DNA from: Escherichia phage fEgEco12 | DNA: 64,000 bases | Strand: one strand, 5' to 3' | Sequence record: PP777464.1 | In this document: piece by piece, positions 42,398 to 60,780 of the stretch | Layout of the letters: each line of letters starts with the position of its first letter | Position numbering within the stretch: the stretch's first letter is position 1 | Translations under genes and position numbers: made by a program | The notes under the pieces: generated by a model | What the model was told of the DNA's origin: nothing | What the model saw: the letters and a program-made list of their open reading frames with translations, nothing else | Database searches by the model: none

Positions 42398-43522
42398 TTA
42401 ATTATCTAAGCCACCAATTACACTGAACTGTGTGGTAACGTCTGAACTATTATCTATGTAAGTTCTTCTACCAACATAATATAGTTGTCCTTTTGCTTGA
42501 ATAAAAGTTACGGTCCCTGTATTGAATGTTATAATATCATTGTATGTAATGTCAGGTGGTAGTGCTGCTGATAACGCAGTAACTTTACTTAATGCAGCAC
42601 TAGTACTACCATTTATACCAGCAGCAATACTACCAGTACCATAGAACTTATTATCTTTACCAATGAATACGTTGGCTGATGCTTGTGTAGCTGATGTTAT
42701 TGCCTTACCAATTTGGAATGCGGTTCCTATGGTGTATGGTGTGCTCCTGGCTGCGTCTATGCTTTGTGTATATCCATCCCCTAGCTGACCATTAACTTTG
42801 TCACCACATGAGTATAGAGTACCATTGAGGCTGTATATGATCCCACGGTTAGAGAAGCTAACAGCTTCTGCATTAGTCCATACTGGTGCGGTGTATGAGT
42901 TTACACGACTAGCGGTAGTTCCTAGACCTAGTATACCATATGTGTTATCACCACATCCAAACCATTGTCCAGAACTGTTTTGATAGAACACTGAACGTTC
43001 TGTTGATTCCATGCGTACAGCATCCACAGCACCACTTTTAACGAACGAAGTTGATGAGGATGTAGTACCAGTACCCAATGCACCATAAGTGTTTGTACCA
43101 ATCGCATAGATTGATCCTAGTGGTGTCATAACACGTATGCAGTTATATCCCAATTGAACTTTACATTCAAATAGGTTGTCCCATATTTCAGGAACAGCAG
43201 AAAATAAATTTGTAATTTCGAACCATGATGTTGTCGAATCAGTTAATCCAATACTGCTTTTGTTTCCTAAAATGAAAACAGTTTTGTCCTTCTTAATTAT
43301 CCATGATGATAGGAAACCTATCTCACAGCTATGAACATTTGATTCTATTTGGGTAATATAATACTTAACTGTGTTATCACCCATGAATGCCGCAGCACCG
43401 GATGCAAAAAGGTTTCCAGTTTGTTTATTTAAAATGTAGTTATTGTTTCCATATACACTAACATCATAAGAACTTTCTTGTTTTTCGTTCCCATAATCAA
43501 ATAACAATACGAAAGGTAACAT
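42398..43522 (-). CDS. cassette protein 15 (last in array): RCC1-like repeat beta-propeller, variant N-terminus MLPFVLLFDYGN
   Basis: GTNTYGALGTG, GDNTYGILGLG, GDKVNGQLGDG repeats. Confidence 0.75.
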   Translation of the reverse strand: MLPFVLLFDYGNEKQESSYDVSVYGNNNYILNKQTGNLFASGAAAFMGDNTVKYYITQIESNVHSCEIGFLSSWIIKKDKTVFILGNKSSIGLTDSTTSWFEITNLFSAVPEIWDNLFECKVQLGYNCIRVMTPLGSIYAIGTNTYGALGTGTTSSSTSFVKSGAVDAVRMESTERSVFYQNSSGQWFGCGDNTYGILGLGTTASRVNSYTAPVWTNAEAVSFSNRGIIYSLNGTLYSCGDKVNGQLGDGYTQSIDAARSTPYTIGTAFQIGKAITSATQASANVFIGKDNKFYGTGSIAAGINGSTSAALSKVTALSAALPPDITYNDIITFNTGTVTFIQAKGQLYYVGRRTYIDNSSDVTTQFSVIGGLDN

Positions 43523-43599
43523 GATAAAATCTCCTTGTGTTATACTTTATTTAATCATTTTATAATGTACAATTTTACAGCGATTTAATTGAGGTACTC

Positions 43600-44250
43600 A
43601 TGAATAAAAGAAGTAAGTTCTATCAAGAATATTTCACTAAACAGAAACGATTCACAAAAAAATACTTTACATCATCCCACCGACCAGTTGCAAGTTACAA
43701 ACGTCCTAATACTAACTATCTTACTGGTGGCAAGTTTAGTGCAAAGTTCGAATTACTTATGCGTGAAAAGAATATCAAGATGCATTACGCAGAGACGAGA
43801 AAAAACTCATCAATTATTTGTTCTGATTTTCTTGAGTACGGTTGTTTAACTTATAAATTCAACGATGTATATTTGTATATTGATGTTGATTGTAACAGTA
43901 CTCGTATGTTTGAGATTTCAATTCACCCAAATCACAACCGTTATATAAACATTAACTTGGTTGATAAAGTACTGATTGGTATATCTAGTACTGATGGTGG
44001 TGGATTTGAATTTATTGCTTCAAAATATGATGAGGACTTTGTACTGTTCCCAGTACTTGATGATGTGAAAGATATTCTCAATTCATTAAAAGGAAGTCAA
44101 TACAAATTATCTGAAGAACAGCTATTTCAGTACTCACTTATTCATGATGATATCGAGATATACTTAGAGTGTGCGAGAATATTGGAGTATCTTTATAATG
44201 AACTAACAACAACTGGTAAAGTGACAGCATTCACATTATATAATATGTAA
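43600..44250 (+). CDS. hypothetical protein, FQYS motif family, embedded on opposite strand inside the cassette array
   Basis: 216 aa; LFQYSLIHDD motif. Confidence 0.6.
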   Translation: MNKRSKFYQEYFTKQKRFTKKYFTSSHRPVASYKRPNTNYLTGGKFSAKFELLMREKNIKMHYAETRKNSSIICSDFLEYGCLTYKFNDVYLYIDVDCNSTRMFEISIHPNHNRYININLVDKVLIGISSTDGGGFEFIASKYDEDFVLFPVLDDVKDILNSLKGSQYKLSEEQLFQYSLIHDDIEIYLECARILEYLYNELTTTGKVTAFTLYNM

Positions 44251-44257
44251 AAGAAAA

Positions 44258-44276
44258 GCCAGTACATAGTACTGGC
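44258..44276. terminator. GCCAGTAC...TACTGGC hairpin
   Basis: GCCAGTAC-ATAG-TACTGGC. Confidence 0.6.
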
Positions 44277-44282
44277 ATTATA

Positions 44283-45419
44283 TTAAACTGGTGGAGAATT
44301 ATATGGCTCAAATTTATAAGTTGTCGTAGCAGTACCAGCAATGGCGTTGTTAGCTAGTATGTACATAGTCCTGTAGTCGATTACCACTACAGTAATACTA
44401 CCACCAAAAGCATAGTCTGTTATGTTATTAGTGTTGAATGGTAAATTAGATGAACTGGTCCATGTATTAGCTGTTGTGCTATTTGTACCATTGGAATAAC
44501 CTACACTAGATGCACCAGTTGTCCATAAGTTTCCATCATTGAACAAGGAGACATGGTTAGTTGTATATGATTTATTAGGTATAGAACTATCAATTGGTGT
44601 ATTCCAAACTTTAGTAACCCATGTTGTAACTGCTGTATTATTAGTAACGCCATTACCTAATGAACCATTTATTGGTATACCTCTTATATAAGAAGTGTTA
44701 GTACTAGGGTCAACATATCCAAATGTATATGTATCAAATGCAAATTGAAAACAATCAGAACTCGGTAATGTGTACAGTAATGTATATGAAGACGTGTTTA
44801 TTGATGAATTTGTACCGTTCACGCCTTGGTATAAAATACCACTAGCCAATATTTGATTATTATTTTTTGTTATAGTGTTCATTGATGGATATGTTTTCAC
44901 ATCACGCACATCATTAGTCACATATGTTTGTGTTGATAATGCAACGTTACTACCATTACCTATAACCCCTGTATTTGCACCACTCCCATAAAGTGAACCA
45001 TCATTCAAAAGAACCATTGTAACATTACCATTTCCCGTAATTGTTTTAATATTACTAACATCCACCGCAGCAAATACAGTTGATGTTAAATCAGTGAAAC
45101 GTGTATAATGTGATGTTGTGCCATTGATTGGTGTCGCAAAACCAGAATACAAAATTCTATTTTCTTTGGTAATAAGGAATGTGCCAGTAACACCATTTGA
45201 ATGGATATCAACAATATTATCGCCCATTAATACCCAATCACTTACGAATGTTGTTGTACCAGTACCCAACCCATATGTCGTATTGTATCCACGTCCATAC
45301 ACTCTACCATCACTGAGTAATGTTACCACACATTGACCACCACCACCAAGGATAACTTTTTGGATAGTACTCTTTACTTTTATATTCCCGTACTTAACCA
45401 TTCTTGCAAAAGGTAACAT
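44283..45419 (-). CDS. cassette protein 14: RCC1-like beta-propeller, N-terminus MLPFARMVKYGN
   Basis: 378 aa; RGYNTTYGLGTG; no hairpin between it and cassette 13. Confidence 0.75.
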   Translation of the reverse strand: MLPFARMVKYGNIKVKSTIQKVILGGGGQCVVTLLSDGRVYGRGYNTTYGLGTGTTTFVSDWVLMGDNIVDIHSNGVTGTFLITKENRILYSGFATPINGTTSHYTRFTDLTSTVFAAVDVSNIKTITGNGNVTMVLLNDGSLYGSGANTGVIGNGSNVALSTQTYVTNDVRDVKTYPSMNTITKNNNQILASGILYQGVNGTNSSINTSSYTLLYTLPSSDCFQFAFDTYTFGYVDPSTNTSYIRGIPINGSLGNGVTNNTAVTTWVTKVWNTPIDSSIPNKSYTTNHVSLFNDGNLWTTGASSVGYSNGTNSTTANTWTSSSNLPFNTNNITDYAFGGSITVVVIDYRTMYILANNAIAGTATTTYKFEPYNSPPV

Positions 45420-45433
45420 TCTTTTTCTCCTTG

Positions 45434-46582
45434 TTATATTGATGGCATATCCAACACATATGAGTTGCTAGTGATTGATGAATATGTAGAATTTAAACCT
45501 GTACTATAAACATAATCACCTGCCCATAAGAATGTTCTATCCAATGTTGTATGTATTTCAATATCATCATATGATGATAATGATATTTGTGCCAGTGTAT
45601 ATGTAGTAGCATCAATGTTTGAACCAATACCCAAAGTACCATTGTATTGTGATTGGGAGTTTTGACCAGTTGCATATATACCAGATTTGGTTATTAAATG
45701 CTGATTGTACATTGACGTACCTTTAAACAATTTAATTAAATTAGAGTTGGGTGTTGTTATTTGTGCAGGAGCAAGTATTGTTGTTGTAGTGCCACCATCA
45801 CCCAATTGACCATATCGTTGGTAACCACCAGCGTATACCTGTTTAACTCCAGCAGTAGTTTCTATAATAAAGAATGAACCATAGCCAGTAGTATTAAAGT
45901 CTATTATTTTATTTGTACTCAAACCAACATTATATCTAGTAAATGTTGTTGCATTTGCTGAACCACCAGCATTCCCACCGACCATTTGACCACTATAATA
46001 AAATGCACCAGTACTGTCAGTATAAGCCATACAGTTTTCACTACCATATATTTTCACTGGTGTACTGGGGAAACTAGAGGTTATATTCACACATGTATTA
46101 TATTTTGCAGTAGTTCCAGTAATTTCACCATTGTTGTTTTGACCAATGACCCAAACTGTGTCATCTGAACGTATAGCCATTGAGCTATAAAACGAGGATA
46201 CAAATTGTTTAATAAAGGAACCAGGGAGAGAAGTAAGCATACTATTGATTTGTGCACTCACATTGGTCCATGTATTCACAACTGAATTGACACCTGCTGC
46301 TGCACCGGAACCAGAACTCCACCATGATTCATCATTCTTTTTAATCAATGTACCGTTAGCAGAGCAATAAACATCAGCAACTGAACTATTAACTAATATC
46401 CATTCCCTCGCTGCTGTTGTATTACCAGTACCTAGCTGTCCTGCTGCATTACTACCCTTAGCATATAAATCGCCATTCTGCGTTAAAAGCATAGTATGTT
46501 GGTATCCAGTTGACAATTTCTTTATTTTTGGTAATGCTGGTGCTTCATTTCCATAATCAAACATTCTAACAAAAGGTAACAT
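45434..46582 (-). CDS. cassette protein 13: RCC1-like beta-propeller, N-terminus MLPFVRMFDYGN
   Basis: 382 aa; GSNAAGQLGTGN, YGQLGDGGTT. Confidence 0.8.
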   Translation of the reverse strand: MLPFVRMFDYGNEAPALPKIKKLSTGYQHTMLLTQNGDLYAKGSNAAGQLGTGNTTAAREWILVNSSVADVYCSANGTLIKKNDESWWSSGSGAAAGVNSVVNTWTNVSAQINSMLTSLPGSFIKQFVSSFYSSMAIRSDDTVWVIGQNNNGEITGTTAKYNTCVNITSSFPSTPVKIYGSENCMAYTDSTGAFYYSGQMVGGNAGGSANATTFTRYNVGLSTNKIIDFNTTGYGSFFIIETTAGVKQVYAGGYQRYGQLGDGGTTTTILAPAQITTPNSNLIKLFKGTSMYNQHLITKSGIYATGQNSQSQYNGTLGIGSNIDATTYTLAQISLSSYDDIEIHTTLDRTFLWAGDYVYSTGLNSTYSSITSNSYVLDMPSI

Positions 46583-46659
46583 AATTCCCTCCTTTATTCA
46601 TTATACTATATTTAATCAAAAAGAAAAGCCAGCACTCTGTACTGGCATAGTATTAAGGT

Positions 46660-47790: not shown

Positions 47791-47835
47791 ATTTCCCTCC
47801 TTTATTCATTATACTATATTTAATACAAAAAGAAA

Positions 47836-47856
47836 TGCCAGTATCAAGTACTGGCA
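47836..47856 (-). terminator. inter-cassette hairpin TGCCAGTA-TCAAG-TACTGGCA plus T-run on minus strand
   Basis: same hairpin at 49835, 51099, 59557. Confidence 0.65.
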
Positions 47857-47869
47857 TAGTTTTATAGTA

Positions 47870-48979
47870 TCATTTCGGCATTGTAATTGCAGACCATGAG
47901 TTCGTGGTAATAGGACCTGGCACATACAAAAAAGAACCACAAGCATAAATTTGATTATTACCATCAAATACTATACTAAAATGTGCACATGTGTATAATG
48001 CTGATTTTTCTGGGTTGTAATTATCTAAAGTTAGTGTATTGGTGAATCTACTCAAACCACCACCAGAACCATTTCTACCAAATTCACCAGTACTATATAT
48101 CTTTCCTTCGGTTGTTGCGTACATATTAACATATGAAGTTGCACTTGATTTTGATATTTTATGTATCTTACTATCAATAGTAGTGGAGTTAAATGCAAAT
48201 GGATATACTTGTGTGTTCGTTGTAATACCGTTACCAAGTTGACCAACATACTGCCAACCTGCGTTGTATATATTGCTGGCTGAATAAGCAAGAGTACCAG
48301 TACTGTTACCACCAAACAGTTTAACACTGGTTAACCTGCTTACTAGTGTAGTATACTGTCCTGGACTTACGCCAAGTGAACCATACCCACTACTCCCACA
48401 ACCGAGAAGTTCACCATTTGATGTTAATATTAATGTGTTATTCTGTGTACCCAATATATCAAGGACTGTATTAGCTCCGGTATTAATAACTGAAACAAAA
48501 GTACTCTGAGCCGTGGAATACCCAGCACCGAGTGAATAGTTACCATTCATGCCTCTACCATAAACAATCGAACCACTAGCATCAACGTAGTGCATTGTAT
48601 CTACACCAATTGATATCATTTTAATATTAGATATATGTGGAAATGAAGAAGTAACATTCAAACCACCCAACTGAATCGTAGTATTTCCTGTGCCTAATTG
48701 TGTGGTAACTCCATGCATTATGAATTCTTCACCCTTGAGATAAAGAATATTGTACGCCCCAGCCCATGCATCAGTAACACCTTCTGAAATTAATATCCAA
48801 GTATTTCTTGTTGCTGTATTTTCAACGTTTAACTGAAAATAAGTATTAACCCCACAACCATAAAGTGAGCCATCGCCATAGAGGACGTACAAATTATCAA
48901 GACCGCACAGTACTTTCTTTATCTTTGGATCTTCAGGTGCAATATTCCCGTAATCAAACATTCTAACAAAAGGTAACAT
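47870..48979 (-). CDS. cassette protein 11: RCC1-like beta-propeller, N-terminus MLPFVRMFDYGN
   Basis: start at MLPF ATG 48979 after GGAGG; track upstream extension discounted; close paralog of cassette 2. Confidence 0.8.
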   Translation of the reverse strand: MLPFVRMFDYGNIAPEDPKIKKVLCGLDNLYVLYGDGSLYGCGVNTYFQLNVENTATRNTWILISEGVTDAWAGAYNILYLKGEEFIMHGVTTQLGTGNTTIQLGGLNVTSSFPHISNIKMISIGVDTMHYVDASGSIVYGRGMNGNYSLGAGYSTAQSTFVSVINTGANTVLDILGTQNNTLILTSNGELLGCGSSGYGSLGVSPGQYTTLVSRLTSVKLFGGNSTGTLAYSASNIYNAGWQYVGQLGNGITTNTQVYPFAFNSTTIDSKIHKISKSSATSYVNMYATTEGKIYSTGEFGRNGSGGGLSRFTNTLTLDNYNPEKSALYTCAHFSIVFDGNNQIYACGSFLYVPGPITTNSWSAITMPK

Positions 48980-49051
48980 ATTTCCTCCTTTATTCATTAT
49001 ACTATATTTAATACAAAAAGAAAAGCCAGTACTCAAGTACTGGCCTATATT

Positions 49052-49789
49052 TTAGACTGAATTGTTAGGATAATATCTCCCACGTCCCCATATTATTCGC
49101 ACAGCACCACCACCAGCAGCAGTATAAGAAGAATTATCCCATATACTACCACCACCACCATACCTCTTACCAGCACCACCACTACCAGCACCACCATTAT
49201 ATGAACCACCGTAGCTACCACCAATACCATTAGCACCTTGAACAATGATACCAGTACCACCACCCGTACCAATGAACGAGGTACTATAGAATGTACCACC
49301 CCCACCGCCGCCGCCAGCACCATTTTCACCAGTGATTGCATCTCCGTTACCACCTTTACCAGTGTAGCCACCAGCACCACCACCAATGACTGCACCACCA
49401 CTTACACCAGTGTTGCCACCATTACCACCACCATCATTAATAGCGTTAGCAGCTTTTCCACCTAGTCCACCAACCGTATATGCACCAGTGAAGCTAACAC
49501 ATAGTTTTTCAGTTCCACGGTATAAACCGTTTTCAACTGCTGTAGTAGTGTTGGAATGTGTAAGAGAAACACTTAAGTACTCACCACCAGAAACTGGAAT
49601 ATTATTACGCCACGATAAGCCGCCACCAGCACCACGTTGACCACCCGGTGAAATAACACATACTGATATTTCGGTAACGCCAGCAGGAACTGTAAATTGT
49701 GTTGTTCCTATTGCCGTGATTAATTGTTCACCATGTGGCTTATATTCAATTTTATTCCCGTACTTAACCATTCTTGCAAAAGGTAACAT
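49052..49789 (-). CDS. cassette protein 10: glycine-rich protein with the same N-terminal module (MLPFARMVKYGN)
   Basis: 245 aa; irregular GGxGG runs, no collagen GXY periodicity. Confidence 0.75.
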   Translation of the reverse strand: MLPFARMVKYGNKIEYKPHGEQLITAIGTTQFTVPAGVTEISVCVISPGGQRGAGGGLSWRNNIPVSGGEYLSVSLTHSNTTTAVENGLYRGTEKLCVSFTGAYTVGGLGGKAANAINDGGGNGGNTGVSGGAVIGGGAGGYTGKGGNGDAITGENGAGGGGGGGTFYSTSFIGTGGGTGIIVQGANGIGGSYGGSYNGGAGSGGAGKRYGGGGSIWDNSSYTAAGGGAVRIIWGRGRYYPNNSV

Positions 49790-49861
49790 AATTCCCTCCT
49801 TTATTCATTATACTATATTTAATACAAATAATAATGCCAGTATCAAGTACTGGCATTATTA

Positions 49862-52266: not shown

Positions 52267-52340
52267 AATTCCCTCCTTTATTCATTATACTATATTTAAT
52301 ACAAATAAGAATGCCAGTACTCTGTACTGGCATTTTAATT

Positions 52341-53495: not shown

Positions 53496-53565
53496 ATTTC
53501 CCTCCTTTATTCATTATACTATATTTAATCAAAAAGAATGCCAGTACTTGAGTACTGGCATTATG

Positions 53566-54675
53566 TTATTTTGGTAAATCAATTTTAGCAAAGACTGCAA
53601 CATCTGCACTTGCACCTGGAATGGCGTAATACGATCCAGTACTATATACATTCCCGTCTTTGGTTAATAATGATGTTAATCCGTCACTAAAAGCAACATC
53701 ACTAATCTCACTAACTTCTACAGGTAATTGTAAATTAGCAGCACTATAGATAGCACCCGTTTGAGAATTGTTTAATCCCAAACCACGGTTTCCCCCAATA
53801 CCTTTCTGATATGCACTAGTTAATATAATTTGCGTAGCCGTGCTTGTTGCCTCTGAATTTGTCATAAACAAAGGTGAATTATTAGGTAAAGTACTTACAG
53901 GAACTGCTTTGAATGTAGTTGAATCTGAACTAAGAAAGTTTGGAGTTGTACCACATGTGAAATATGATGTACCATTATAGTAATTGAGTGTATGTCCACC
54001 AATAGCTGCATCTATTACACCAGAACTACGCAGTCCCCAAATGTTAACTTGTGTTCTGTTCCCTGTGCCATGTAATCCACGGTCATTCCACCCTGAACTA
54101 TATAACTTATTATCTATGCTAATATACATACTATCATTAGGAGTAGACATAACTTTACGCACATTAGAAGCACATAGTGTTAATGTATATATTGATGAAG
54201 AACCAATCCCCAATACACCACGGTATCCATTAGCCCCAGCACCATAGAGTACTGAACTTGAACTGAGTACAAATATTACACCACCATTGCATACAATATT
54301 AGCAATTTGATTCACAGGAATTGTATTTGTAAACCACTCCGTTCTATCAACTAATGTAGTACTGTAAGAAGTTGTTGTTGATGATGTGAACCAATATGTT
54401 TCACCTGATGTCCATATCGTATTGTCATTTTTAATAATAACAAGTGTTCGTCCTCCAGTGAAAAAATTAGAAACATCTGCACTTACTAATGTCCAAGAAG
54501 ATACCGTGTTTTTATTACCATTTCCAGATTCACCACCTTGATTTCTGCCTATGTAATATAATTCATGTGAATCAGTCAATACGAATTGACCTTGTGTAGA
54601 AGCACCAACTTTTATTATATTTTTAGGACCAGGTGTAATATTCCCATAATCAAATAGTCTTACAAAAGGTAACAT
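53566..54675 (-). CDS. cassette protein 6: RCC1-like beta-propeller, N-terminus MLPFVRLFDYGN
   Basis: start at MLPF ATG 54675; GRNQGGESGNG. Confidence 0.8.
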   Translation of the reverse strand: MLPFVRLFDYGNITPGPKNIIKVGASTQGQFVLTDSHELYYIGRNQGGESGNGNKNTVSSWTLVSADVSNFFTGGRTLVIIKNDNTIWTSGETYWFTSSTTTSYSTTLVDRTEWFTNTIPVNQIANIVCNGGVIFVLSSSSVLYGAGANGYRGVLGIGSSSIYTLTLCASNVRKVMSTPNDSMYISIDNKLYSSGWNDRGLHGTGNRTQVNIWGLRSSGVIDAAIGGHTLNYYNGTSYFTCGTTPNFLSSDSTTFKAVPVSTLPNNSPLFMTNSEATSTATQIILTSAYQKGIGGNRGLGLNNSQTGAIYSAANLQLPVEVSEISDVAFSDGLTSLLTKDGNVYSTGSYYAIPGASADVAVFAKIDLPK

Positions 54676-54683: not shown

Positions 54684-55877
54684 CTATTGTTGCCATAACT
54701 GCGTTGGCATTAATGTTAATGTTTTAATTAAGTAAGTACCATCCGGTAATTTACTACCTGAACCGTTAAAGCCCCCACATGCATATAATTTATAATCTTT
54801 AGTTATAATTATTGTTCTGGACCAGTCTTTGGATGCCATAAGAACATTGTCATATCCACCCTGTATCGCACTTAAAGAAAACGCCCCCCACGAAGTAATT
54901 ATTGTTGTATTTCCCGTCCCTTCTTGACCATATGTATTGATGCCTGCACTCCTGACATATGATGGGTATTGAGCCATAGGTGCACCAATTGTTGAGTTAC
55001 CCATATTACTAGGACACAGGAAACCATCACTAATATTCACTATAACCTGTGAATTCTGAACTGTAGTTAATTGGTTTGTAGTTGAAGTAGTACCATTCCC
55101 AGCTTGTCCAGAATTGTTTCTACCACTCCAGTACACCCTACCGGCAGTAAACCACCAGGTAACATCATAAGTAGTACTTATATAATCGACGTTGGTTCGT
55201 ATTAATTTATTAGTAAAAACGTATGAGCTAGTCCCACCACCACTTTCACCAAAGTTATCCTTACCACAAAACCATGCTTCTTTATTTGTTTTGAGATAGT
55301 GCGTACCCTGTAATGAACACGCCAATTGAGAAACTTCACCCATACCAGTAACAACTGTTAGTACTGGAATGGGATTTTGGTTACCTGTTCCACATTCGGC
55401 ATTTGCATTTTTACCACAAACAACGACTCTTCCATCGTGTAGTAATATTCTAGTACTTTCACCTATATGTACACTCTTGATTAAATTAGCGTGTATATTT
55501 ATTTTGTTAAATGCGGCAGTAACATCAGTCCATGTTCTAAAATAACCATTAACTGGAGTTGCATCTCCATAATCGGGGAATGCTACTGTATTCCCTGTGA
55601 AATATATTCTATTATCCAAGTCAATCATCAATGATCCATGAACGCCTAACCAAAAGGCTGCACAGTGCGTTGCCAGTACTGTAAAAGTTGAAACTGCCGA
55701 TTGATTCCCTAGACCTAATTGGCTCAAGTTATTACCACCATAACCGTATAGTGTATTCGTGGGCTTATGTAGATACATAGCATTAGTATAATGTTGCTGT
55801 AAAACATCAGTGAACTCAACTGGTTCAGGAATAGGCAGTTTATTCCCGTACTTAACCATTCTTGCAAAAGGTAACAT
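54684..55877 (-). CDS. cassette protein 5: RCC1-like beta-propeller, N-terminus MLPFARMVKYGN
   Basis: start at MLPF ATG 55877; YGGNNLSQLGLG. Confidence 0.8.
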   Translation of the reverse strand: MLPFARMVKYGNKLPIPEPVEFTDVLQQHYTNAMYLHKPTNTLYGYGGNNLSQLGLGNQSAVSTFTVLATHCAAFWLGVHGSLMIDLDNRIYFTGNTVAFPDYGDATPVNGYFRTWTDVTAAFNKINIHANLIKSVHIGESTRILLHDGRVVVCGKNANAECGTGNQNPIPVLTVVTGMGEVSQLACSLQGTHYLKTNKEAWFCGKDNFGESGGGTSSYVFTNKLIRTNVDYISTTYDVTWWFTAGRVYWSGRNNSGQAGNGTTSTTNQLTTVQNSQVIVNISDGFLCPSNMGNSTIGAPMAQYPSYVRSAGINTYGQEGTGNTTIITSWGAFSLSAIQGGYDNVLMASKDWSRTIIITKDYKLYACGGFNGSGSKLPDGTYLIKTLTLMPTQLWQQ

Positions 55878-55952
55878 AACTAAAATCTCCATATAATAAT
55901 TATAATGTATTTACAAAAAAATACCAGTACGTATTTCAGTACTGGTATAATG

Positions 55953-57134
55953 TTATGGTAAAATAATAGCTTGTAACGAACTCATACCCAATGTTGGAAC
56001 ACTCGCCTGTGGTGCTGGTGCATTCACTTTTGGTGATGAAACCGCATATGTCATTCCTGAACCCAAATCTGGATCAAAAACTACAGCACAATAATTCCCA
56101 CTATATATAAGTCCATTCTTGTATCCTTGTGCACTTTGAATGCATTTCGTGAACGTCCCAATATCTGTAGTGGCATTTATTAAGTTCCTCCCACGATAAC
56201 CGCAGGTGTATATGAAATTATCATCGCCTATGTACATACTAGAATCCCCAGCAGAACTACATAGATACGACATATAAGCACGCATGTTTTTAGGAGCAAC
56301 TGACAATGTACCAGCATAGAATTTATTATTCGAACCCGAAATATCACCATCACCCAAAGCACCAAAACTCCCCCAACCAGTACCATAATATCTCTTATCA
56401 CTCAAGAATATAATACAGTTGTTATTACACATCTTGACTTGATATATCAATGAAGGATCAACCCCAGGGAATGATTCAGTGTATGTTAGAACAGCCAGAT
56501 CAGTACTAGCATTACATTGATGATATGTATTAGTACCAGAGGACAATATTGTACCATCAACTAATAGAATCCTCGAAGTGCCAGTACCAGCAGTACAAGC
56601 AACTGCACTTCCTGCACTTCCGGTGTATATTTGTCTGAAAGTAAAGAAACCAACAGTCTTACTCCCTTGTCCACTCCAACCAGTATTATCAACACCACAC
56701 GCCCATACTGAACCATCTTCCATGATCATCATTACACCATAACGTTCTATTGAAATATAAACAATCTTTTTAGTATCAACTGCACTAAATCTAGAAGTTA
56801 TATCCGTCCAAACCTTTACACTTACCGCCGTCGCACTGGAAGTAGGATCTTCACCTGCTATCATTATCCTACCATTGTTAGTCAGATACATTGTCTGACT
56901 ATAACCAGTACTACAAAACTTAACACTATCAGTCTCTGGAACTTTTAACCACTCGTTGTAACGTGTTACGTTAGTGTTATTACCTAACTGATAATAGTTA
57001 TTCATCCCAGATACATATAACACACCATCCTTTATTAAACTATAAGTCGCACTATAGTCACTACAGGTATAACGTGTACCCACAGGTGGCTCAACGACGT
57101 TCCCATAATCAAACATTCTAACAAAAGGTAACAT
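55953..57134 (-). CDS. cassette protein 4: RCC1-like beta-propeller, N-terminus MLPFVRMFDYGN
   Basis: 393 aa; GMNNYYQLGNN. Confidence 0.8.
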   Translation of the reverse strand: MLPFVRMFDYGNVVEPPVGTRYTCSDYSATYSLIKDGVLYVSGMNNYYQLGNNTNVTRYNEWLKVPETDSVKFCSTGYSQTMYLTNNGRIMIAGEDPTSSATAVSVKVWTDITSRFSAVDTKKIVYISIERYGVMMIMEDGSVWACGVDNTGWSGQGSKTVGFFTFRQIYTGSAGSAVACTAGTGTSRILLVDGTILSSGTNTYHQCNASTDLAVLTYTESFPGVDPSLIYQVKMCNNNCIIFLSDKRYYGTGWGSFGALGDGDISGSNNKFYAGTLSVAPKNMRAYMSYLCSSAGDSSMYIGDDNFIYTCGYRGRNLINATTDIGTFTKCIQSAQGYKNGLIYSGNYCAVVFDPDLGSGMTYAVSSPKVNAPAPQASVPTLGMSSLQAIILP

Positions 57135-57207
57135 AATAAAATCTCCGTAATTAAATTATATAGTATTTACAAAAAATACCAGTACATATTTCAGTACTGA
57201 CCTATTA

Positions 57208-58329
57208 TTAAAAGGGCAACGGTAACTCAGTAAAAGTACTTACGTCCGGTAAACCATACATTGAATTAGCATCACCACAGTAATACCACTTCGTAGAATC
57301 ATGTACCACCGATAAACGCTGTGCACATAACACTTCCTGTATGTCATTAAACACCATCGGGACTAACTCATATGTATCCGCAAATGAAGATACACCACCA
57401 CTCGCATGAAAAGTATTCGTCCCAGCATAAAATAACTGATTAGTGTTCTTACCCACAGCAAATGTCATCAATATCCCATCATTCTCCCATAAAGAAGAAA
57501 ACTTATCAACACTACCAGAAAGCTCTGTGTAAGTACTCGTAATGGCACTCGCAGCCGCCGCATTACCCATCTGTTTATTCAAGTTCTGTCCAGCAATAAA
57601 ATATCTCGTTCGTGCACTAGAATCAGTATATAATAACCCAGTGTTCGTAGTCATCATACCAATGTCCTTAATCGTCATACCAGTCTGTGAATAACTTAGA
57701 TACGAAGTTAAATTAACATTATTACCCAACGAACCGTTATCACTCATGCCACAACGATGTAATATACCACTTGTATCAACGTAGATTGTACTAACTAAAC
57801 TCGTATACAACTCTTGTACATTATTCGCAATAAACACAGCAGTCGCCTTATTACTAACCCCACCAAATGATAGGTTATTATCAAATCCCTTAGCGTATAA
57901 TTGATTATTAGTAGTCAATAATCCAATCGTGAAATAAGACATTTTCATATCCCTTACTGTACTCAAATCTACTGCCCCAAATTGGTGCGTAACATCTGTC
58001 CATGTGAAAATCTGTGCACTACCAACACCACCCGTTTCAAACCATTTGTCACCACAGTACAATATGCGATTACCCTTAGTAAAGATAACTGTTACCAATC
58101 CACTACCACACGCAAACTTTACATCACTTCTAACCTTCGTCCAATCAAGTACATAGGTAGTGGTGTTATTACCTATACCTAACTTGCCATAACGGTTATA
58201 ACCACGCACCCACAAATCACCACTCTTAGTAATTAATAGTAATGCGTCTCCTGTACTTATTATTCGAAATCCCGAACTAGGATCAGGTACTTCATTTCCA
58301 TAATCAAACATTCTAACAAAAGGTAACAT
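57208..58329 (-). CDS. cassette protein 3: RCC1-like beta-propeller, N-terminus MLPFVRMFDYGN
   Basis: 373 aa; GYNRYGKLGIG. Confidence 0.8.
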   Translation of the reverse strand: MLPFVRMFDYGNEVPDPSSGFRIISTGDALLLITKSGDLWVRGYNRYGKLGIGNNTTTYVLDWTKVRSDVKFACGSGLVTVIFTKGNRILYCGDKWFETGGVGSAQIFTWTDVTHQFGAVDLSTVRDMKMSYFTIGLLTTNNQLYAKGFDNNLSFGGVSNKATAVFIANNVQELYTSLVSTIYVDTSGILHRCGMSDNGSLGNNVNLTSYLSYSQTGMTIKDIGMMTTNTGLLYTDSSARTRYFIAGQNLNKQMGNAAAASAITSTYTELSGSVDKFSSLWENDGILMTFAVGKNTNQLFYAGTNTFHASGGVSSFADTYELVPMVFNDIQEVLCAQRLSVVHDSTKWYYCGDANSMYGLPDVSTFTELPLPF

Positions 58330-58401
58330 ATTTCCCTCCTTTATTCATTATAATATATTTAATACAAAAAAGAAAAGCCAGTACAGAGTACTGGCATAGT
58401 A

Positions 58402-59511
58402 TTACTTGGGTAATGGAATTGTAGTCCATCTATTAGCGGCAACGCCCCCTGGTACATATGTAGGACTACCACTTACAGCAATAGTTTCATTACCATCATA
58501 CACAACACTGAAGTTTGTGCACGTATACAACGAGGCGGTATCTGGATTGTAATTTATAAGTGTTAATGTATTGGTGAACAAATTCAATGCAGTAGTTGAC
58601 CCGTTTTTACCAAACGAACCTGTCGTATATATCTTTCCTTCTGTTGTTGAGTACATGTTAACATATGACCCAGATGATGATTTGGCAATTTTATCTATCT
58701 TGCTATCTATCGTTTTAGAGTTAAATTGAAATGGATATACCTGTACGTTAGTATCTAAACCATTTCCTAGTTCCCCATTTAACTGCCACCCTGAGTGGTA
58801 CATTCCCGAATTTGTATATGCAAGCGTACTATACCCATTACCACCCATTATTTTAGTGCCAGATAATTTTAAACCAAACGATGTCCACTTACCAGTTTCA
58901 TTTCCTATAGAACCATAAGCACTTGTCCCACATGCTCGAAGCTCACCATTCGATGTTAGAAGCACTGTATTATTAACGTTACCAAATATATCAATAACCT
59001 GATTAGTTCCATTATTCAGTACTGAAGTGAAAGTACTCTGTGAGTAAGTACTACCTGAACCAACAGAACCATTTGTGTTCATACCTCTTCCATATACAGT
59101 TGTACCATCAGCACTAACATAGTGCATTGAATCAAAACCAATGGATATCATTTTAATATTAGAGATATCTGGGAATGAAGAAGTTACATCTACTCCACCT
59201 AATGGAATTGTAGTATTTCCTAAACCTAATGAGACATTAGTTCCGTGCATTATAAATTTATCTTCTTTCAAATATAAAATATTGTATCCACCAGCCCATG
59301 CATTACTAACACCATTGGTAATTAGTACCCAATTATTTTGTGTAGCAGTTCCATCAATATTTAACTGTTGATAGTTATTGATTCCACAACCATATAGCGA
59401 ACCATCACCATATAGTACATATAAATTATCATATCCTGCTATAACTTTCTTTATTTTTTTCGGTACTGGTGCAATATTCCCGTACTTAACCATTCTTACA
59501 AAAGGTAACAT
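58402..59511 (-). CDS. cassette protein 2: RCC1-like beta-propeller, hybrid N-terminus MLPFVRMVKYGN
   Basis: start at MLPF ATG 59511; close paralog of cassette 11. Confidence 0.8.
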   Translation of the reverse strand: MLPFVRMVKYGNIAPVPKKIKKVIAGYDNLYVLYGDGSLYGCGINNYQQLNIDGTATQNNWVLITNGVSNAWAGGYNILYLKEDKFIMHGTNVSLGLGNTTIPLGGVDVTSSFPDISNIKMISIGFDSMHYVSADGTTVYGRGMNTNGSVGSGSTYSQSTFTSVLNNGTNQVIDIFGNVNNTVLLTSNGELRACGTSAYGSIGNETGKWTSFGLKLSGTKIMGGNGYSTLAYTNSGMYHSGWQLNGELGNGLDTNVQVYPFQFNSKTIDSKIDKIAKSSSGSYVNMYSTTEGKIYTTGSFGKNGSTTALNLFTNTLTLINYNPDTASLYTCTNFSVVYDGNETIAVSGSPTYVPGGVAANRWTTIPLPK

Positions 59512-59556
59512 ATTTCCTCCTTTATTCATTATACTATATTTAATACAAAAAGAAAA

Positions 59557-59575
59557 GCCAGTATCAAGTACTGGC
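59557..59575 (-). terminator. inter-cassette hairpin GCCAGTA-TCAAG-TACTGGC
   Basis: read directly. Confidence 0.65.
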
Positions 59576-59583
59576 ATATTAAA

Positions 59584-60732
59584 TCACTGCCAAAATGACA
59601 TATCAACTTCTGTGAAATTAAGCACGCTCTGCGTAGAAAGACCACCCATTGCTACCATCGCAATTCCACAATAATATAACTTCCCTTTGTCATTGAGTAA
59701 CAATGTCCCAGATGGTGTTGTTACTAAATTGCACGAAGTATTAAAAGAAGTATATGAAGGAGTATAGTAGTACTGATTAATGGTATTACCTACACCTAAT
59801 TTTCCATACCCATTTTCTCCAGATGCGTAAAGTACTTCATCACCTTTAGCAATATGTGATGCCATGTTACTAACACACGTGTATACAGCTCTAACTCCTG
59901 TACTCAATAATGTAGGAGTCTTGTATTGGATATCAGTACTAGTAGATGTCCCACCTGTACCAAATTCATTACCGTATTGTGCACCGTATTGTTTACCACA
60001 AGCGTACAAATTATTATCCGATTTGATAAAAAATGTACTCTGATAACTTACATTAAAATCTATAACATCCGAAGAAATCATCGTCACCCCAGTAATAGAA
60101 GTTTGATTACCCGTGCCCAACTGGTAGTAATAGTTAAAACCACAACCCCATAAAGTATTATCTTCTCGCAAATAAATGTTACCAACTGCCTTTTTAACCG
60201 AAGTTATAGTATCTACTCTTTTGAATGTGTTAAAAGAATTAATGTTTGTGCCATCACCAAATGATGATATGTTCGATATATTGTTAGTTCCACAACAATA
60301 CAATGTACCATCGTTTGTTATCAAATTCACCTTCATATCATAAAAACTACTCATGTATTTTATATCAGAAACATTAATACCACTTGATGTTATCCACGTA
60401 GTACAGTCCGTCCACAAAGTTTTTCTATCAGTTACACCAGTGAATGCCTTCGTGTTACCAGTGATAAAAACTTTTCCAGTACCTTTCTCTTCATACAATT
60501 GACAATCACTACTGTTATCTTCCAATAGAACTCGTTTAACATTCTCCGCACAAAGAATAAATTTACTCGATGCTACACCTGTACCAGTACCCCAATTCGT
60601 CGCAGAAGATGCATACAACTTGTCAGTATAAGTATCATGAAGATACATAGAATCACTGGAATATATTTTATAACGACCAGAGTTGGTAGGAGCTTCATTC
60701 CCATAATCAAACATTCTAACAAAAGGTAACAT
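59584..60732 (-). CDS. cassette protein 1 (first in array): beta-propeller-like, N-terminus MLPFVRMFDYGN
   Basis: start at MLPF ATG 60732; same upstream TATAATGAATAAAGGAGG module. Confidence 0.75.
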   Translation of the reverse strand: MLPFVRMFDYGNEAPTNSGRYKIYSSDSMYLHDTYTDKLYASSATNWGTGTGVASSKFILCAENVKRVLLEDNSSDCQLYEEKGTGKVFITGNTKAFTGVTDRKTLWTDCTTWITSSGINVSDIKYMSSFYDMKVNLITNDGTLYCCGTNNISNISSFGDGTNINSFNTFKRVDTITSVKKAVGNIYLREDNTLWGCGFNYYYQLGTGNQTSITGVTMISSDVIDFNVSYQSTFFIKSDNNLYACGKQYGAQYGNEFGTGGTSTSTDIQYKTPTLLSTGVRAVYTCVSNMASHIAKGDEVLYASGENGYGKLGVGNTINQYYYTPSYTSFNTSCNLVTTPSGTLLLNDKGKLYYCGIAMVAMGGLSTQSVLNFTEVDMSFWQ

Positions 60733-60780
60733 ATTTCCTCCTTTATTCATTATATCATATTTACCCCAAAAAGAAAACCC

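What the first reader, a model, noticed from the sequence alone, without database searches (positions are those of the whole stretch)
42398..60750. Two leader alleles (ARMVKYGN and VRMFDYGN) alternate along the array, with hybrids
Reading from the 5' end of the array the leaders run VRMFDYGN, VRMVKYGN (hybrid), VRMFDYGN, VRMFDYGN, ARMVKYGN, VRLFDYGN, VRMFDYGN, ARMVKYGN, VRMFDYGN, ARMVKYGN, VRMFDYGN, ARMVKYGN, VRMFDYGN, ARMVKYGN, VLLFDYGN. The upstream boxes also fall into at least two variants (one CCTCCTTTATTCATTATACTATATTTAAT type, one AATCTCC...ATTATA type). Alternation plus a hybrid leader suggests repeated gene conversion or unequal crossing-over within the module, or duplication of a two-cassette unit. 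Cassettes 2 and 11 are close paralogs.
Basis: seen in the sequence. Interest (0 to 1): 0.6.

Follow-up and report, generated by a model that had tools for sequence, protein, structure and literature searches.

The report
Shuffled cassette array of tagged virion proteins
A giant E. coli phage carries 15 tandem genes whose very different proteins all start with the same 12-residue tag, and that shared tag-plus-regulatory junction is where related phages recombine to swap, delete and reorder genes; the apparent alternation of two tag variants is incidental.

Summary
The leader order, the two upstream box types and the c2/c11 paralogy are exactly as reported. The window is an Asteriusvirus jumbo coliphage, probably fEgEco12.

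Each cassette is terminator hairpin, TAAATA..TATAAT box, RBS, 36-nt leader, Pro-rich linker, then a variable body: 14 RCC1-like propellers about 25% identical, and one Gly-rich protein.

Alternation is weak (p about 0.04-0.15) and absent from relatives. Leader class is unrelated to body similarity (p=0.84), so a duplicated two-cassette unit is rejected.

Recombination at the junction is supported:
- All 50 internal homology-block ends against five relatives fall between -90 and +52 of a cassette ATG.
- c1 is the 5' end of a lost cassette joined to another body.
- c2 is a c11 duplicate carrying a roughly 30-nt c8-type tract.
- Orthologous bodies carry different leaders and boxes in other phages.
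- Silent sites are homogenised.

The leader is a tag found across Rak2-like phages (MLPFxR[MIL]xxYGN). It is predicted disordered on two unrelated folds and also heads Kelch and LamG proteins. Thirteen tagged proteins are reported as virion components, 11 with published mass-spectrometry tables (phAPEC6, CBB) and two in GAP32.

I infer a virion-incorporation tag. That function is untested.

The parts
59584..60732 (-). Cassette 1 CDS (382 aa, RCC1-like); leader VRMFD at 60697-60732
   Evidence: Recombinant: identical to cassette b of relatives up to +44, then the OG1 body.
58402..59511 (-). Cassette 2 CDS (369 aa, RCC1-like); 'hybrid' leader VRMVK
   Evidence: Paralog of c11 (63% aa). Positions +15..+47 match c8 at all but one position.
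57208..58329 (-). Cassette 3 CDS (373 aa, RCC1-like); leader VRMFD
   Evidence: Ortholog in EJP2 is 95.8% aa identical in the body but carries leader ARMMT.
55953..57134 (-). Cassette 4 CDS (393 aa, RCC1-like); leader VRMFD; box B upstream
   Evidence: The same body has box A in Ecwhy_1 and no box in BF17.
54684..55877 (-). Cassette 5 CDS (397 aa, RCC1-like); leader ARMVK; box B upstream
   Evidence: Its 3' end is followed by OG6, OG4 or OG3 in different phages.
53566..54675 (-). Cassette 6 CDS (369 aa, RCC1-like); leader VRLFD; only 8 nt after c5, no terminator or box
52341..53495 (-). Cassette 7 CDS (384 aa, RCC1-like); leader VRMFD
   Evidence: Sits at a different array position in BF17.
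51124..52266 (-). Cassette 8 CDS (380 aa, RCC1-like); leader ARMVK
   Evidence: 100% identical to a fEgEco12 protein. AF2 pLDDT 90.8, with residues 1-11 below 50. Seven-bladed RCC1/UVR8-like fold.
49862..51052 (-). Cassette 9 CDS (396 aa, RCC1-like); leader VRMFD
   Evidence: Orthologs carry VRLFD (BF17, J, EC.P1, Ecwhy_1) or ARMMN (G17).
49052..49789 (-). Cassette 10 CDS (245 aa, glycine-rich, not RCC1); leader ARMVK
   Evidence: phrog_4474; remote Gly_rich_2 relatives. AF2 pLDDT 92.1, with residues 1-7 below 50.
47870..48979 (-). Cassette 11 CDS (369 aa, RCC1-like); leader VRMFD but with the VK-type TAC codon
46660..47790 (-). Cassette 12 CDS (376 aa, RCC1-like); leader ARMVK
45434..46582 (-). 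Cassette 13 CDS (382 aa, RCC1-like); leader VRMFD
   Evidence: Its 3' end is followed by OG14 here but by cassette 'l' in vB_Ec-M-J.
44283..45419 (-). Cassette 14 CDS (378 aa, RCC1-like); leader ARMVK; 14 nt after c13, no box
   Evidence: The same body has box A in J, EC.P1 and Ecwhy_1.
42398..43522 (-). Cassette 15 CDS (374 aa, RCC1-like); divergent leader VLLFD; conserved last position in all close relatives
59512..59583 (-). Junction 1>2 (72 nt): terminator 59557-59575, box A 59528-59542, RBS
58330..58401 (-). Junction 2>3: terminator 58377-58395, box A 58347-58361
57135..57207 (-). Junction 3>4: terminator 57178-57201, box B 57155-57169
55878..55952 (-). Junction 4>5: terminator 55921-55948, box B 55899-55913
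53496..53565 (-). Junction 6>7: terminator 53537-53562, box A 53513-53527
52267..52340 (-). Junction 7>8: terminator 52310-52334, box A 52284-52298
51053..51123 (-). Junction 8>9: terminator 51099-51117, box A 51070-51084
49790..49861 (-). Junction 9>10: CCAGTACTTGATACTGG hairpin (T-run weak, not flagged by the scan), box A 49807-49821
48980..49051 (-). Junction 10>11: terminator 49023-49046, box A 48996-49010
47791..47869 (-). Junction 11>12: terminator 47835-47857, box A 47808-47822
46583..46659 (-). Junction 12>13: terminator 46628-46646, box A 46600-46614
60733..60834 (-). Region upstream of cassette 1 with a box A variant (60749-60763). In relatives this is the upstream region of cassette b.
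43523..44282 (.). 760-nt gap between c14 and c15. Contains the c14 terminator (44258-44276), an orphan box-like site (44235-44249), the plus-strand ORF 43600-44250 (216 aa, phrog_34359) and the c15 promoter-like box.
   Evidence: The same interruption is present in all close relatives.
42367..42393 (.). Bidirectional terminator hairpin closing the array against the plus-strand membrane-protein array

Best explanation
**What the array is.** It is a set of 15 genes for accessory virion proteins of a Rak2-like (Asteriusvirus) jumbo phage. Thirteen have their own promoter-like box; two are coupled to the preceding gene. All share one module plan:
- an intrinsic terminator hairpin;
- a TAAATA..TATAAT promoter-like box of non-sigma-70, late-promoter-like type;
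- a ribosome-binding site;
- 36 nt encoding a 12-residue N-terminal tag, MLPF-x-R-[MLI]-x-x-Y-G-N;
- a short proline-rich linker;
- a variable binding-type domain, here RCC1-like propellers and one glycine-rich domain.

**How it varies.** The roughly 110-nt junction is the only sequence the cassettes share.
- Shown: it is where homologous recombination occurs, both within a genome (unequal crossover, short conversion tracts) and between related phages. That recombination deletes, duplicates, reorders and swaps whole cassettes and moves boxes and leader variants between bodies.
- Shown: FD and VK are two co-circulating DNA haplotypes of the variable tag positions 5, 8 and 9, specific to this lineage. 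Other Asteriusviruses use LE/MT, MN/IK and others.
- Shown: the 'hybrid' leaders are conversion mosaics.
- Shown: the alternating order is an accident of which cassettes lie next to each other.

**What the tag does (inferred).** The tag is kept by selection on the protein because it directs these otherwise unrelated proteins into or onto the virion. The likely mode is a flexible docking peptide that binds a common structural partner. Recombination and co-evolution with that partner keep the tag uniform within each genome.
For: **Anatomy**
- Junction layout as described.
- Terminator-like sites are enriched, 25 against 7.3 +/- 2.9 in shuffles, and sit at the junctions.
- The box TAAATAYWNTATAAT gives 14 hits against 1.2 expected, all on the minus strand.
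- Sigma-70-type sites are not enriched.

**Shared sequence is confined to the junction**
- Mean pairwise nt identity is 0.77-1.00 over +1..+36, 0.47 over +37..+45 and about 0.33 after that.
- Bodies are 21-34% aa identical.

**Recombination**
- 50 of 50 internal block ends fall in the -90..+52 zone, which is about 12% of the array. The 3' ends cluster at +35..+52.
- Three mosaics are resolved to the base.
- Cassette order and content differ even from Ecwhy_1, which has 97% ANI to fEgEco12 (PMC13070987).
- Box type and leader vary for the same orthogroup across phages.

**Concerted evolution**
- The OG3 body is 95.8% aa identical between the window and EJP2, but the leader is 78% nt identical. 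The same window leader is 100% identical to that of a paralog whose body is about 25% identical.
- Silent sites are homogenised: TTA 15/15, CCT 15/15, AGA 14/14 and GGG 12/15, against body usage of 0.45, 0.30, 0.41 and 0.11.

**Tag as a protein-level signal**
- M1, L2, P3, F4 and N12 are invariant, and R6, Y10 and G11 nearly so, in 124 Asteriusvirus cassettes.
- The tag is present, with different codons, in GAP32, CBB, Salmonella SE_PL and Xanthomonas XaC1. Serratia BF has a variant.
- AF2 gives pLDDT below 50 for the tag on both an RCC1 propeller and the unrelated Gly-rich fold.
- Generic RCC1 proteins lack the tag.

**Virion association**
- phAPEC6 gp003, 5, 6, 7, 9 and 10 are in the virion proteome (PMC7247149 Table 1) and all carry the tag.
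- CBB_548, 549, 551, 552 and 553 are MS-identified structural proteins (PMC5259590) and all carry it.
- GAP32 gp001 was MS-identified according to PMC5259590. gp002 is annotated 'virion structural protein'. Both are tagged.
Against: - No experiment shows what the tag binds, whether it is retained or cleaved, or whether the proteins are outside or inside the particle.
- MS peptide counts in phAPEC6 are low (1-4 unique peptides).
- Promoter class and timing are inferred from sequence and from late-promoter predictions for CBB and GAP32. They were not measured.
- BLAST blocks necessarily extend through any shared repeat. The clustering of block ends therefore shows that whole cassettes are the unit of exchange; it does not show that every crossover was in the leader itself.
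- Within-genome uniformity of the tag could come partly from co-evolution with a partner rather than from conversion.
- Only 9 Asteriusvirus arrays were analysed.
Confidence: 0.7

Rival explanations
1. The array grew by serial duplication of a two-cassette unit (one FD gene plus one VK gene), and alternation is the footprint of that unit.
For: Cassettes 7-15 alternate strictly, and no two VK leaders are adjacent. Two cassette pairs (5>6, 13>14) are translationally coupled and mixed in class.
Against: - Bodies do not fall into two clades. Within-class identity is 20.7% against 21.9% between classes, p=0.84.
- The only recent duplicate pair (c2/c11) lies nine cassettes apart and has different leaders.
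- BF17 has the same 8-15 block with an extra VK cassette that breaks the pattern.
- Coupled pairs in relatives are FD>FD, VK>FD and FD>VK without rule.
Confidence: 0.03
2. The two leader classes are functionally distinct, for example addressing two docking sites or forming FD/VK heteromers. Selection then keeps both classes, and perhaps their interleaving.
For: - Every Asteriusvirus array examined has at least two leader types.
- In the window the classes differ in charge: D9 with E13 in five of nine FD leaders, and K9 with K13 in three of six VK leaders.
- The silent TAT/TAC site is linked to class.
- No VK-VK adjacency in the window (p about 0.04).
Against: - Orthologous bodies switch class between phages. 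OG1 is V in the window, A in EJP2 and A in G17. OG2/11 carries VRMFD, VRMVK, ARMVK, GRMLK or ARIMT.
- Class ratios vary from 12:3 to 6:5. There are runs of eight FD and three VK.
- phAPEC6 lacks FD entirely.
Confidence: 0.12
3. The leader is a cleavable capsid-targeting propeptide like the T4 internal-protein CTS. The bodies would then be packaged inside the head, as inner-body or ejected proteins and perhaps as anti-defence effectors, rather than displayed outside.
For: - The architecture matches that of the T4 internal proteins: a short conserved N-terminal tag on a hypervariable family of virion proteins (PMC3012670).
- phAPEC6 has an inner body, and its authors suggested the RCC1-like proteins as candidates (PMC7247149).
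- Tagged proteins are found in virions.
Against: - There is no conserved Glu or other common cleavage motif after the tag. For example, c2 has no Glu in its first 38 residues, whereas T4 gp21 cuts after Glu (own knowledge).
- The bodies are propellers, LamG and Kelch domains, which are typical surface-binding modules.
- The Gly-rich body has a weak Foldseek hit to a cyanophage tail fibre (E=1.2e-3, TM 0.27), and a profile search found no PDB sequence match.
- None of this is decisive.
Confidence: 0.2
4. The conserved 36 nt are an mRNA-level element (a translation-initiation or 'downstream box' region). Their conservation would have nothing to do with the peptide or with recombination.
For: The region directly follows the RBS. 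Silent sites are unusually uniform within the genome, including a rare GGG codon.
Against: - Across genera the peptide is kept while the codons change: CCT to CCA or CCG, TTA to ATA or TTT, GGG to GGT or GGC.
- Cassettes 6 and 14 keep the leader in a quite different upstream context.
- The mosaics and block ends show exchange.
Confidence: 0.05

Closest known systems
[quoted passage not shown] 2010, PMC2839356; Comeau et al. 2014, PMC4122927)
   Same: - A short composite terminator-plus-promoter-plus-SD motif is repeated between variable, non-essential genes in a hyperplastic region.
- Insertions, deletions and replacements between close relatives have their ends at these motifs.
   Different: - The promoter here is not sigma-70 early type. 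It has no -35 element and has a TAAATA..TATAAT core.
- The homology extends 36-45 nt into the coding sequence and encodes a conserved peptide.
- The flanked genes are one functional class, tagged virion proteins, rather than unrelated ORFans.
- Mini-circles were not tested.
T4 internal proteins (IPI, IPII, IPIII and relatives) with the N-terminal capsid targeting sequence (PMC3012670)
   Same: A highly diverse set of virion-associated proteins shares only a short conserved N-terminal sequence that addresses them to the particle. The locus is plastic between relatives.
   Different: - No sequence similarity of the tags.
- No conserved protease site.
- Bodies are 25-45 kDa folded propellers or lectin-like domains rather than small basic proteins.
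- Location (inside or outside) and processing are unknown.
Tandem RCC1-like ('DNA condensation protein') genes already noted in 121Q, PBECO4, phAPEC6 and fEgEco12 (PMC5259590, PMC7247149, PMC13070987)
   Same: It is the same locus and the same gene family. Multiplicity and virion detection are already published.
   Different: In the texts searched, those papers do not describe the shared N-terminal tag, the junction module, cassette shuffling, or the link to the Kelch/LamG/GAP32_002-like tagged genes of CBB, GAP32, SE_PL and BF.
Receptor-binding proteins with a conserved N-terminal anchor and exchangeable C-terminal domains (tailspikes and depolymerases of multi-RBP phages; own knowledge)
   Same: A conserved N-terminus is used for attachment to the particle, with variable distal domains. 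The recombination boundary lies at the anchor/body border.
   Different: Those anchors are folded domains of about 100 residues or more, in trimeric fibres. Here the shared part is 12 disordered residues on monomer-like propellers. No tail-fibre homology was found.

Membership tests
RCC1-like beta-propeller (Pfam RCC1/RCC1_2/WD40_RLD) | RCC1 repeat signature in the sequence | tested here: met
   Eight of the 14 propeller cassettes were scanned (c1, c2, c4, c5, c8, c14, c15). PF00415 or PF13540 is above the gathering score in six of seven (for example c15 at 50.2 bits against 21.7; c1, c2, c4, c5, c8). c14 falls just below (19.9 against 22). WD40_RLD is hit in all seven, below its whole-domain cut-off. 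The other seven are assigned by alignment with these.
RCC1-like beta-propeller (Pfam RCC1/RCC1_2/WD40_RLD) | Seven-bladed propeller fold | tested here: met
   AF2 model of c8 has pLDDT 90.8 and pTM 0.88. Foldseek top hits are UVR8, RPGR-RLD, HERC2-RLD and RCC1, with E down to 1e-20 and TM 0.66-0.76.
RCC1-like beta-propeller (Pfam RCC1/RCC1_2/WD40_RLD) | Chromatin or Ran-GEF ('chromosome condensation') activity, as implied by the database names | not testable with these tools
   The annotation is by name transfer only. Nothing here supports a DNA-condensing role.
PeSL (T4-type promoter-early stem-loop cassette) | Sigma-70 consensus early promoter (-35 and -10 with an AT-rich upstream region) | tested here: not met
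   The junction boxes do not score as sigma-70 promoters, and such sites are not enriched (82 against 93 expected). The -35 position reads TTTTCT.
PeSL (T4-type promoter-early stem-loop cassette) | Stable stem-loop acting as a terminator within the motif | tested here: met
   CCAGTAC..GTACTGG hairpins with T-runs occur at 12 junctions. Terminator-like sites number 25 against 7.3 in shuffles. Function is inferred, not measured.
PeSL (T4-type promoter-early stem-loop cassette) | Indel and replacement breakpoints between close relatives coincide with the motifs | tested here: met
   50 of 50 internal block ends lie within -90..+52 of a cassette ATG.
PeSL (T4-type promoter-early stem-loop cassette) | Formation of excised mini-circles | not testable with these tools
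   Needs PCR or long reads on phage DNA.
T4-type capsid targeting sequence (CTS) proteins | Short conserved N-terminal sequence shared by otherwise unrelated virion proteins | tested here: met
   A 12-residue tag sits on RCC1, Gly-rich, Kelch, LamG and GAP32_002-like bodies. Virion detection comes from published MS (PMC7247149, PMC5259590).
T4-type capsid targeting sequence (CTS) proteins | Prohead-protease cleavage site directly after the tag (after Glu in T4; own knowledge) | tested here: not met
   Residue 13 is E, I, K or V, and several cassettes have no Glu in the first 25-38 residues. A different protease specificity cannot be excluded.
T4-type capsid targeting sequence (CTS) proteins | Packaging inside the head through the scaffolding core | not testable with these tools
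   Needs localisation experiments.
Programmed cassette-switching systems (integrons, shufflons, silent-cassette antigenic variation) | Site-specific recombinase with specific sites, or promoterless/silent cassettes feeding one expression site | tested here: not met
   - All 15 cassettes lie in the same orientation and have their own RBS and ATG.
- 13 of 15 have their own promoter-like box, and 12 junctions have a terminator.
- No recombinase is annotated next to the array in any of the relatives' feature tables.

The most novel reading that the evidence does not exclude
Rak2-like jumbo phages have a universal 12-residue N-terminal 'address tag' (MLPFxR[MIL]xxYGN). It loads an interchangeable, rapidly shuffled repertoire of binding domains (RCC1 and Kelch propellers, LamG, Gly-rich) onto one docking site of the virion, possibly the unexplained capsid and tail 'hairs' of phAPEC6 and CBB. 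The tag-coding DNA would double as the recombination linker that diversifies the repertoire. This would be a natural, programmable display or cargo system of a kind not yet described.
Probability: 0.4. Interest if true: 0.75.

Novelty: new variant of a known kind. Interest (0 to 1): 0.58.

Why it matters
- **A handle on an unexplained gene family.** The many 'chromosome condensation regulator' genes of Asteriusvirus jumbo phages are currently mis-named and unexplained. Recognising a shared tag plus a shuffling junction turns them into a testable system: one short peptide that may suffice to put any protein into or onto a 350-kb phage particle. That is useful for display or cargo engineering, as the T4 CTS and Hoc/Soc have been.
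- **Fast turnover between near-identical phages.** The locus changes cassette content even between phages of 97% ANI. It is therefore a likely determinant of differences in host or environment interaction among therapeutic jumbo-phage candidates.
- **Wider reach of a known mechanism.** The finding extends regulatory-cassette-mediated modular shuffling, known for T4-type early regions, to a structural gene family in which the homology reaches into the coding sequence.

Tried and rejected
1. **Two-cassette duplication unit.** Rejected by the class-versus-body permutation test.
2. **Alternation as a conserved rule.** Rejected by comparison of eight other arrays.
3. **Leader as the N-terminal 'velcro' strand of the propeller.** Rejected. 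AF2 places residues 1-11 outside the fold with pLDDT below 50, and the same holds on the unrelated c10 fold.
4. **Sigma-70 early promoter in the junction.** Not supported.
5. **mRNA-only conservation.** Rejected by synonymous variation across genera.
6. **Function of the c10 body.** No Pfam hit for c10 itself. The PDB sequence search gave nothing significant (best E=0.38) and the profile search nothing at all. Foldseek gave only a weak hit to the cyanophage Pam3 fibre, TM 0.27, so this is kept as a hint only.
7. **N-terminal peptides in the phAPEC6 MS data.** No supplementary text is held.
8. **Leader scan of IMG/VR.** Only one further contig was found.
9. **Literature searches for a description of the tag or of the array's recombination.** Nothing was found.
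10. **Four-gamete test on the ungapped -30..+45 alignment.** Discarded, because 1-nt spacing differences upstream misalign the columns.
11. **CMSTMSU (L001).** Excluded from the array analysis because its cassettes are riddled with frameshifts and the record is flagged UNVERIFIED.

Full report
**Identity of the window.** Megablast of 42398-60750 hits only Asteriusvirus jumbo coliphages and a few Salmonella relatives. The matches are mosaic: the best record covers 39% of the query. Cassette 8 is 100% identical to a protein of Escherichia phage fEgEco12, a 374.7-kb phage described in PMC13070987. That paper notes only that some 'chromosome condensation regulators' differ from those of its 97%-ANI relative Ecwhy_1.

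**Check of the observation.** A six-frame motif search finds exactly 15 minus-strand ORFs beginning MLPF.....YGN.
- At DNA level the two 'alleles' are haplotypes: GTT AGA ATG TTT GAT TAT versus GCA AGA ATG GTT AAG TAC.
- The two upstream box types are real. Box A precedes cassettes 1-3 and 7-13, box B precedes 4 and 5, and 15 has a related variant.
- Cassettes 6 and 14 have no box and start 8 and 14 nt after the preceding stop.
- c2 and c11 are 63% identical. All other pairs are 21-34% identical. The c10 body is unrelated, being glycine-rich.

**Is alternation more than chance?** Only weakly.
- With 9 FD and 6 VK leaders, the chance of no VK-VK adjacency is 0.042. It is 0.15 if the hybrid is counted with the V class.
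- In the syntenic arrays of BF17, vB_Ec-M-J, EC.P1, Ecwhy_1, Turkey3, EJP2, G17 and phAPEC6 the pattern is not kept. There are runs of eight FD and of three VK. BF17 has the same 8-15 block with one extra VK cassette. phAPEC6 has no FD leader at all.

**Anatomy of a module.** Each full junction (70-79 nt) holds three elements, followed by the ATG:
- a CCAGTAC..GTACTGG hairpin with a T-run;
- a TAAATA-N3-TATAAT box;
- AAGGAGG (box A) or GGAGA (box B).

Terminator-like sites are enriched, 25 against 7.3 +/- 2.9 in shuffles, and lie at the junctions. Sigma-70-type promoters are not enriched, and the boxes lack a -35 element. The box pattern occurs 14 times against 1.2 expected, always on the minus strand. 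Twelve of these are in front of array cassettes. One is in front of the only other sizeable minus-strand gene of the window, 12148-13305.

The TAAATA core resembles the ATAAATA late-promoter motif predicted for structural genes of CBB and GAP32 (PMC5259590). It is also found upstream of tagged genes in GAP32, BF, SE_PL and XaC1. Late timing is therefore inferred, not shown.

**Where the similarity stops.** With sequences anchored on the ATG, mean pairwise nucleotide identity among the 15 cassettes behaves as follows:
- 1.00, 0.83, 0.77 and 0.88 over the four 9-nt bins of the leader;
- 0.47 at +37..+45;
- about 0.33 afterwards.

Cassettes 6 and 14 keep the leader although their upstream context is the 3' end of another gene.

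Silent sites are far more uniform than codon usage predicts. TTA is used 15/15 times, CCT 15/15, AGA 14/14 and GGG 12/15, against body usage of 0.45, 0.30, 0.41 and 0.11.

**Leader versus body.** Bodies with the same leader class are no more alike (20.7%) than bodies of different classes (21.9%; permutation p=0.84). This rejects a duplicated two-cassette unit.

I clustered the bodies of eight arrays into orthogroups. The arrays sit in the same place, between a plus-strand array of small membrane proteins and an array of small plus-strand ORFs. Their content and order differ:
- The window reads 1-15.
- BF17 reads b,1,7,5,4,a,6,8,9,10,11,12,c,13,14,15.
- vB_Ec-M-J reads b,1,g,3,4,a,6,7,8,9,k,13,l,14,15.
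- Ecwhy_1 reads 1,2,4,5,6,(pseudo),7,9,d,8,14,15.

The same orthogroup carries different leaders and different boxes in different phages:
- OG1 has VRMFD, ARILE or ARMMN.
- OG2/11 has VRMFD, VRMVK, ARMVK, GRMLK or ARIMT.
- OG5 has box A or box B.
- OG4 has box A, box B or none.

Each genome has its own leader set. EJP2 uses mostly VRMLE and ARIMT. G17 uses GRM[IV]K and ARMMN. For OG3 the body is 95.8% identical between the window and EJP2, while the leader is only 78% identical at nucleotide level. That same window leader is identical to the leader of a paralog whose body is about 25% identical. This is the signature of concerted evolution.

**Breakpoints.** I compared the window array with five close relatives using blastn at 85% identity or more. 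All 50 internal block ends lie between -90 and +52 of a cassette ATG, a zone that makes up about 12% of the array. Downstream ends cluster at +35..+52, the end of the leader. No block ends inside a body.

Three cases are resolved to the base:
1. Window c1 is identical to cassette b of vB_Ec-M-J from upstream to +44. It then continues as OG1, and it carries b's silent variants at +15 and +42. This is the product expected if b was deleted by a leader-to-leader crossover.
2. The 3' end of OG5, which has no box after it, is followed by OG6 (window, G17), OG4 (BF17) or OG3 (Turkey3). Those exchanges must have occurred within the leader.
3. The 'hybrid' c2 has c11's upstream region (-52..-1 identical) and a c11-like body. 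Positions +15..+47 match c8 at all but one position, against eight mismatches to c11. This is a short conversion tract.

Inside the 36-nt leader, 13 of 36 informative site pairs show all four gametes. One caveat applies: BLAST extends through any shared repeat. The clustering therefore proves cassette-wise exchange bounded by the junction. It does not prove that every crossover lay in the leader.

**What the leader is.**
- In 124 Asteriusvirus cassettes M1, L2, P3, F4 and N12 are invariant, and R6, Y10 and G11 nearly so. Positions 5, 8 and 9 vary.
- The motif extends across the Rak2-like clade with different codons:
  - GAP32 gp001 has MLPFSRIIQYGN and gp002 has MLPFARIFRYGD.
  - Seven consecutive CBB genes (CBB_548-554) have MLPF[SPA][RI]..x.Y[GA]N.
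  - Five Salmonella SE_PL genes have MIPFARILTYGN and similar.
  - Xanthomonas XaC1 has MFPIPIISKYGN.
  - Serratia BF has a variant, MLPFPIIS.., on five adjacent genes.
- Selection therefore acts on the peptide.
- Generic RCC1 proteins from the large protein database lack the motif.
- The bodies attached to it are unrelated folds. They are RCC1 propellers, the Gly-rich domain of c10 (phrog_4474, remote Gly_rich_2 relatives), phrog_12615 proteins, Kelch and Laminin_G_3 domains (CBB annotation) and GAP32_002-like proteins.
- GAP32_002-like homologues in about 150-kb phages align only from residue 16-19, so they lack the tag.
- AlphaFold2 models of c8 (pLDDT 90.8) and c10 (pLDDT 92.1) are confident except for the tag. 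Residues 1-11 and 1-7 respectively are below 50, and a proline-rich linker follows. The leader is thus a flexible N-terminal extension, not part of the fold.

**Virion association.** This evidence comes from published proteomics, which I linked to the tag.
- phAPEC6 gp003, 5, 6, 7, 9 and 10 are in the virion MS table (PMC7247149). All begin MLPF[AG]RM[VIL]KYGN.
- CBB_548, 549, 551, 552 and 553 are MS-identified structural proteins (PMC5259590). All are tagged.
- GAP32 gp001 was MS-identified according to PMC5259590. gp002 is annotated 'virion structural protein'.

I therefore infer that the tag is a virion-incorporation signal. Whether the proteins sit outside or inside is open. Outside would mean docked on the capsid or tail, perhaps related to the 'hairy' appendages of phAPEC6 and CBB. 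Inside would mean an inner body or ejected proteins, as the phAPEC6 authors speculated.

The lack of any common cleavage motif after the tag, and the binding-type folds, lean towards a retained docking peptide. The weak Foldseek hit of c10 to a cyanophage fibre (E=1.2e-3, TM 0.27) is only a hint. A profile search found no sequence match in the PDB.

**Comparison with known systems.** The junction works like the PeSL cassettes of T4-type phages: terminator plus promoter motifs at which hyperplastic regions are shuffled (PMC2839356, PMC4122927). It fails the PeSL definition on promoter type, and unlike PeSLs its homology reaches into the coding sequence.

The tag-plus-variable-body logic parallels the T4 internal proteins. 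[quoted passage not shown] Cleavage and internal location are not established here.

The multiplicity of RCC1-like genes and their presence in virions were already published. In the texts I could search I found no description of the tag, the module, the shuffling, or the link to the Kelch, LamG and other tagged genes of other genera.

**Verdict.** The alternation and the two-cassette idea do not hold. The more interesting object is the tagged, junction-shuffled cassette array itself.

Noticed in passing
window 39922-42361 (+): Seven tandem paralogous genes for about 104-123-aa predicted membrane proteins (17-27% identity). They lie directly next to the array on the opposite strand. The same neighbourhood is seen in all relatives and in CBB (CBB_543-547, 'putative membrane protein').
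   Followed up: partly
window 60835-63859 (+): A second multigene family: at least eight small ORFs (61-70 aa) sharing MNxxEYYxxKL...Y.Y..VLKLI, on the other side of the array.
   Followed up: partly
window 43523-44282: A plus-strand ORF (43600-44250, 216 aa, phrog_34359, unknown function) splits cassette 14 from 15 in the window and all close relatives. Just after the c14 terminator there is an orphan promoter-box-like site (44235-44249, one mismatch) with no cassette behind it. This may be the vestige of a lost cassette.
   Followed up: partly
window 12148-13305 (-), box at 13328-13342: The only other large minus-strand gene in the window (385 aa, no Pfam hit, no tag). It has the same TAAATA..TATAAT box 23 nt upstream of its ATG, so the box is a general promoter type rather than an array-specific element.
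   Followed up: partly
window box A, e.g. 60733-60750, 59512-59529, 48980-48997: Box A contains an ATG (TATAATGAATAAAGGAGG) that is in frame with the leader in some cassettes. It gives spurious N-terminal extensions (MNKGGN-MLPF...), as in the raw ORF list. The strong RBS 5-6 nt before the MLPF ATG marks the real start.
   Followed up: yes
L020 1238-1858 (Logan contig SRR12907740_527): An ortholog of cassette 10 in which the start codon and the whole leader are missing. The cause is a 37-nt deletion between two GGGAAT repeats, one in the RBS spacer and one at codons 11-12. It is either a natural tagless variant or an assembly artefact.
   Followed up: partly
proteins P0020-P0063 (homologues of the cassette 10 body): In phages outside the Rak2-like group, the Gly-rich family starts with a different conserved N-terminal motif (M[LI]E[LMA]L..., for example PVP-SE1 gp19). 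This hints that clade-specific short N-terminal tags on accessory virion proteins may be a wider phenomenon.
   Followed up: no
L018 79-3835 and L019 131-1565 (Pectobacterium phage CBB, CBB_548-554): Seven consecutive tagged genes with Kelch, Laminin_G_3 and GAP32_002-like bodies, at the syntenic position just before the terminal repeat. Five of them are MS-verified structural proteins. CBB has no RCC1 cassette.
   Followed up: yes
L003 12537-13716 and L005 14857-16036: EC.P1 and Ecwhy_1 carry a frameshifted cassette: a leader plus 59 aa, then a separate 357-aa ORF. This is evidence of cassette decay.
   Followed up: no
L001 (CMSTMSU, MH494197.1): Almost every cassette in this record is broken into short ORFs. 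The record is flagged UNVERIFIED and looks like a low-quality assembly, although it is the top megablast hit.
   Followed up: no
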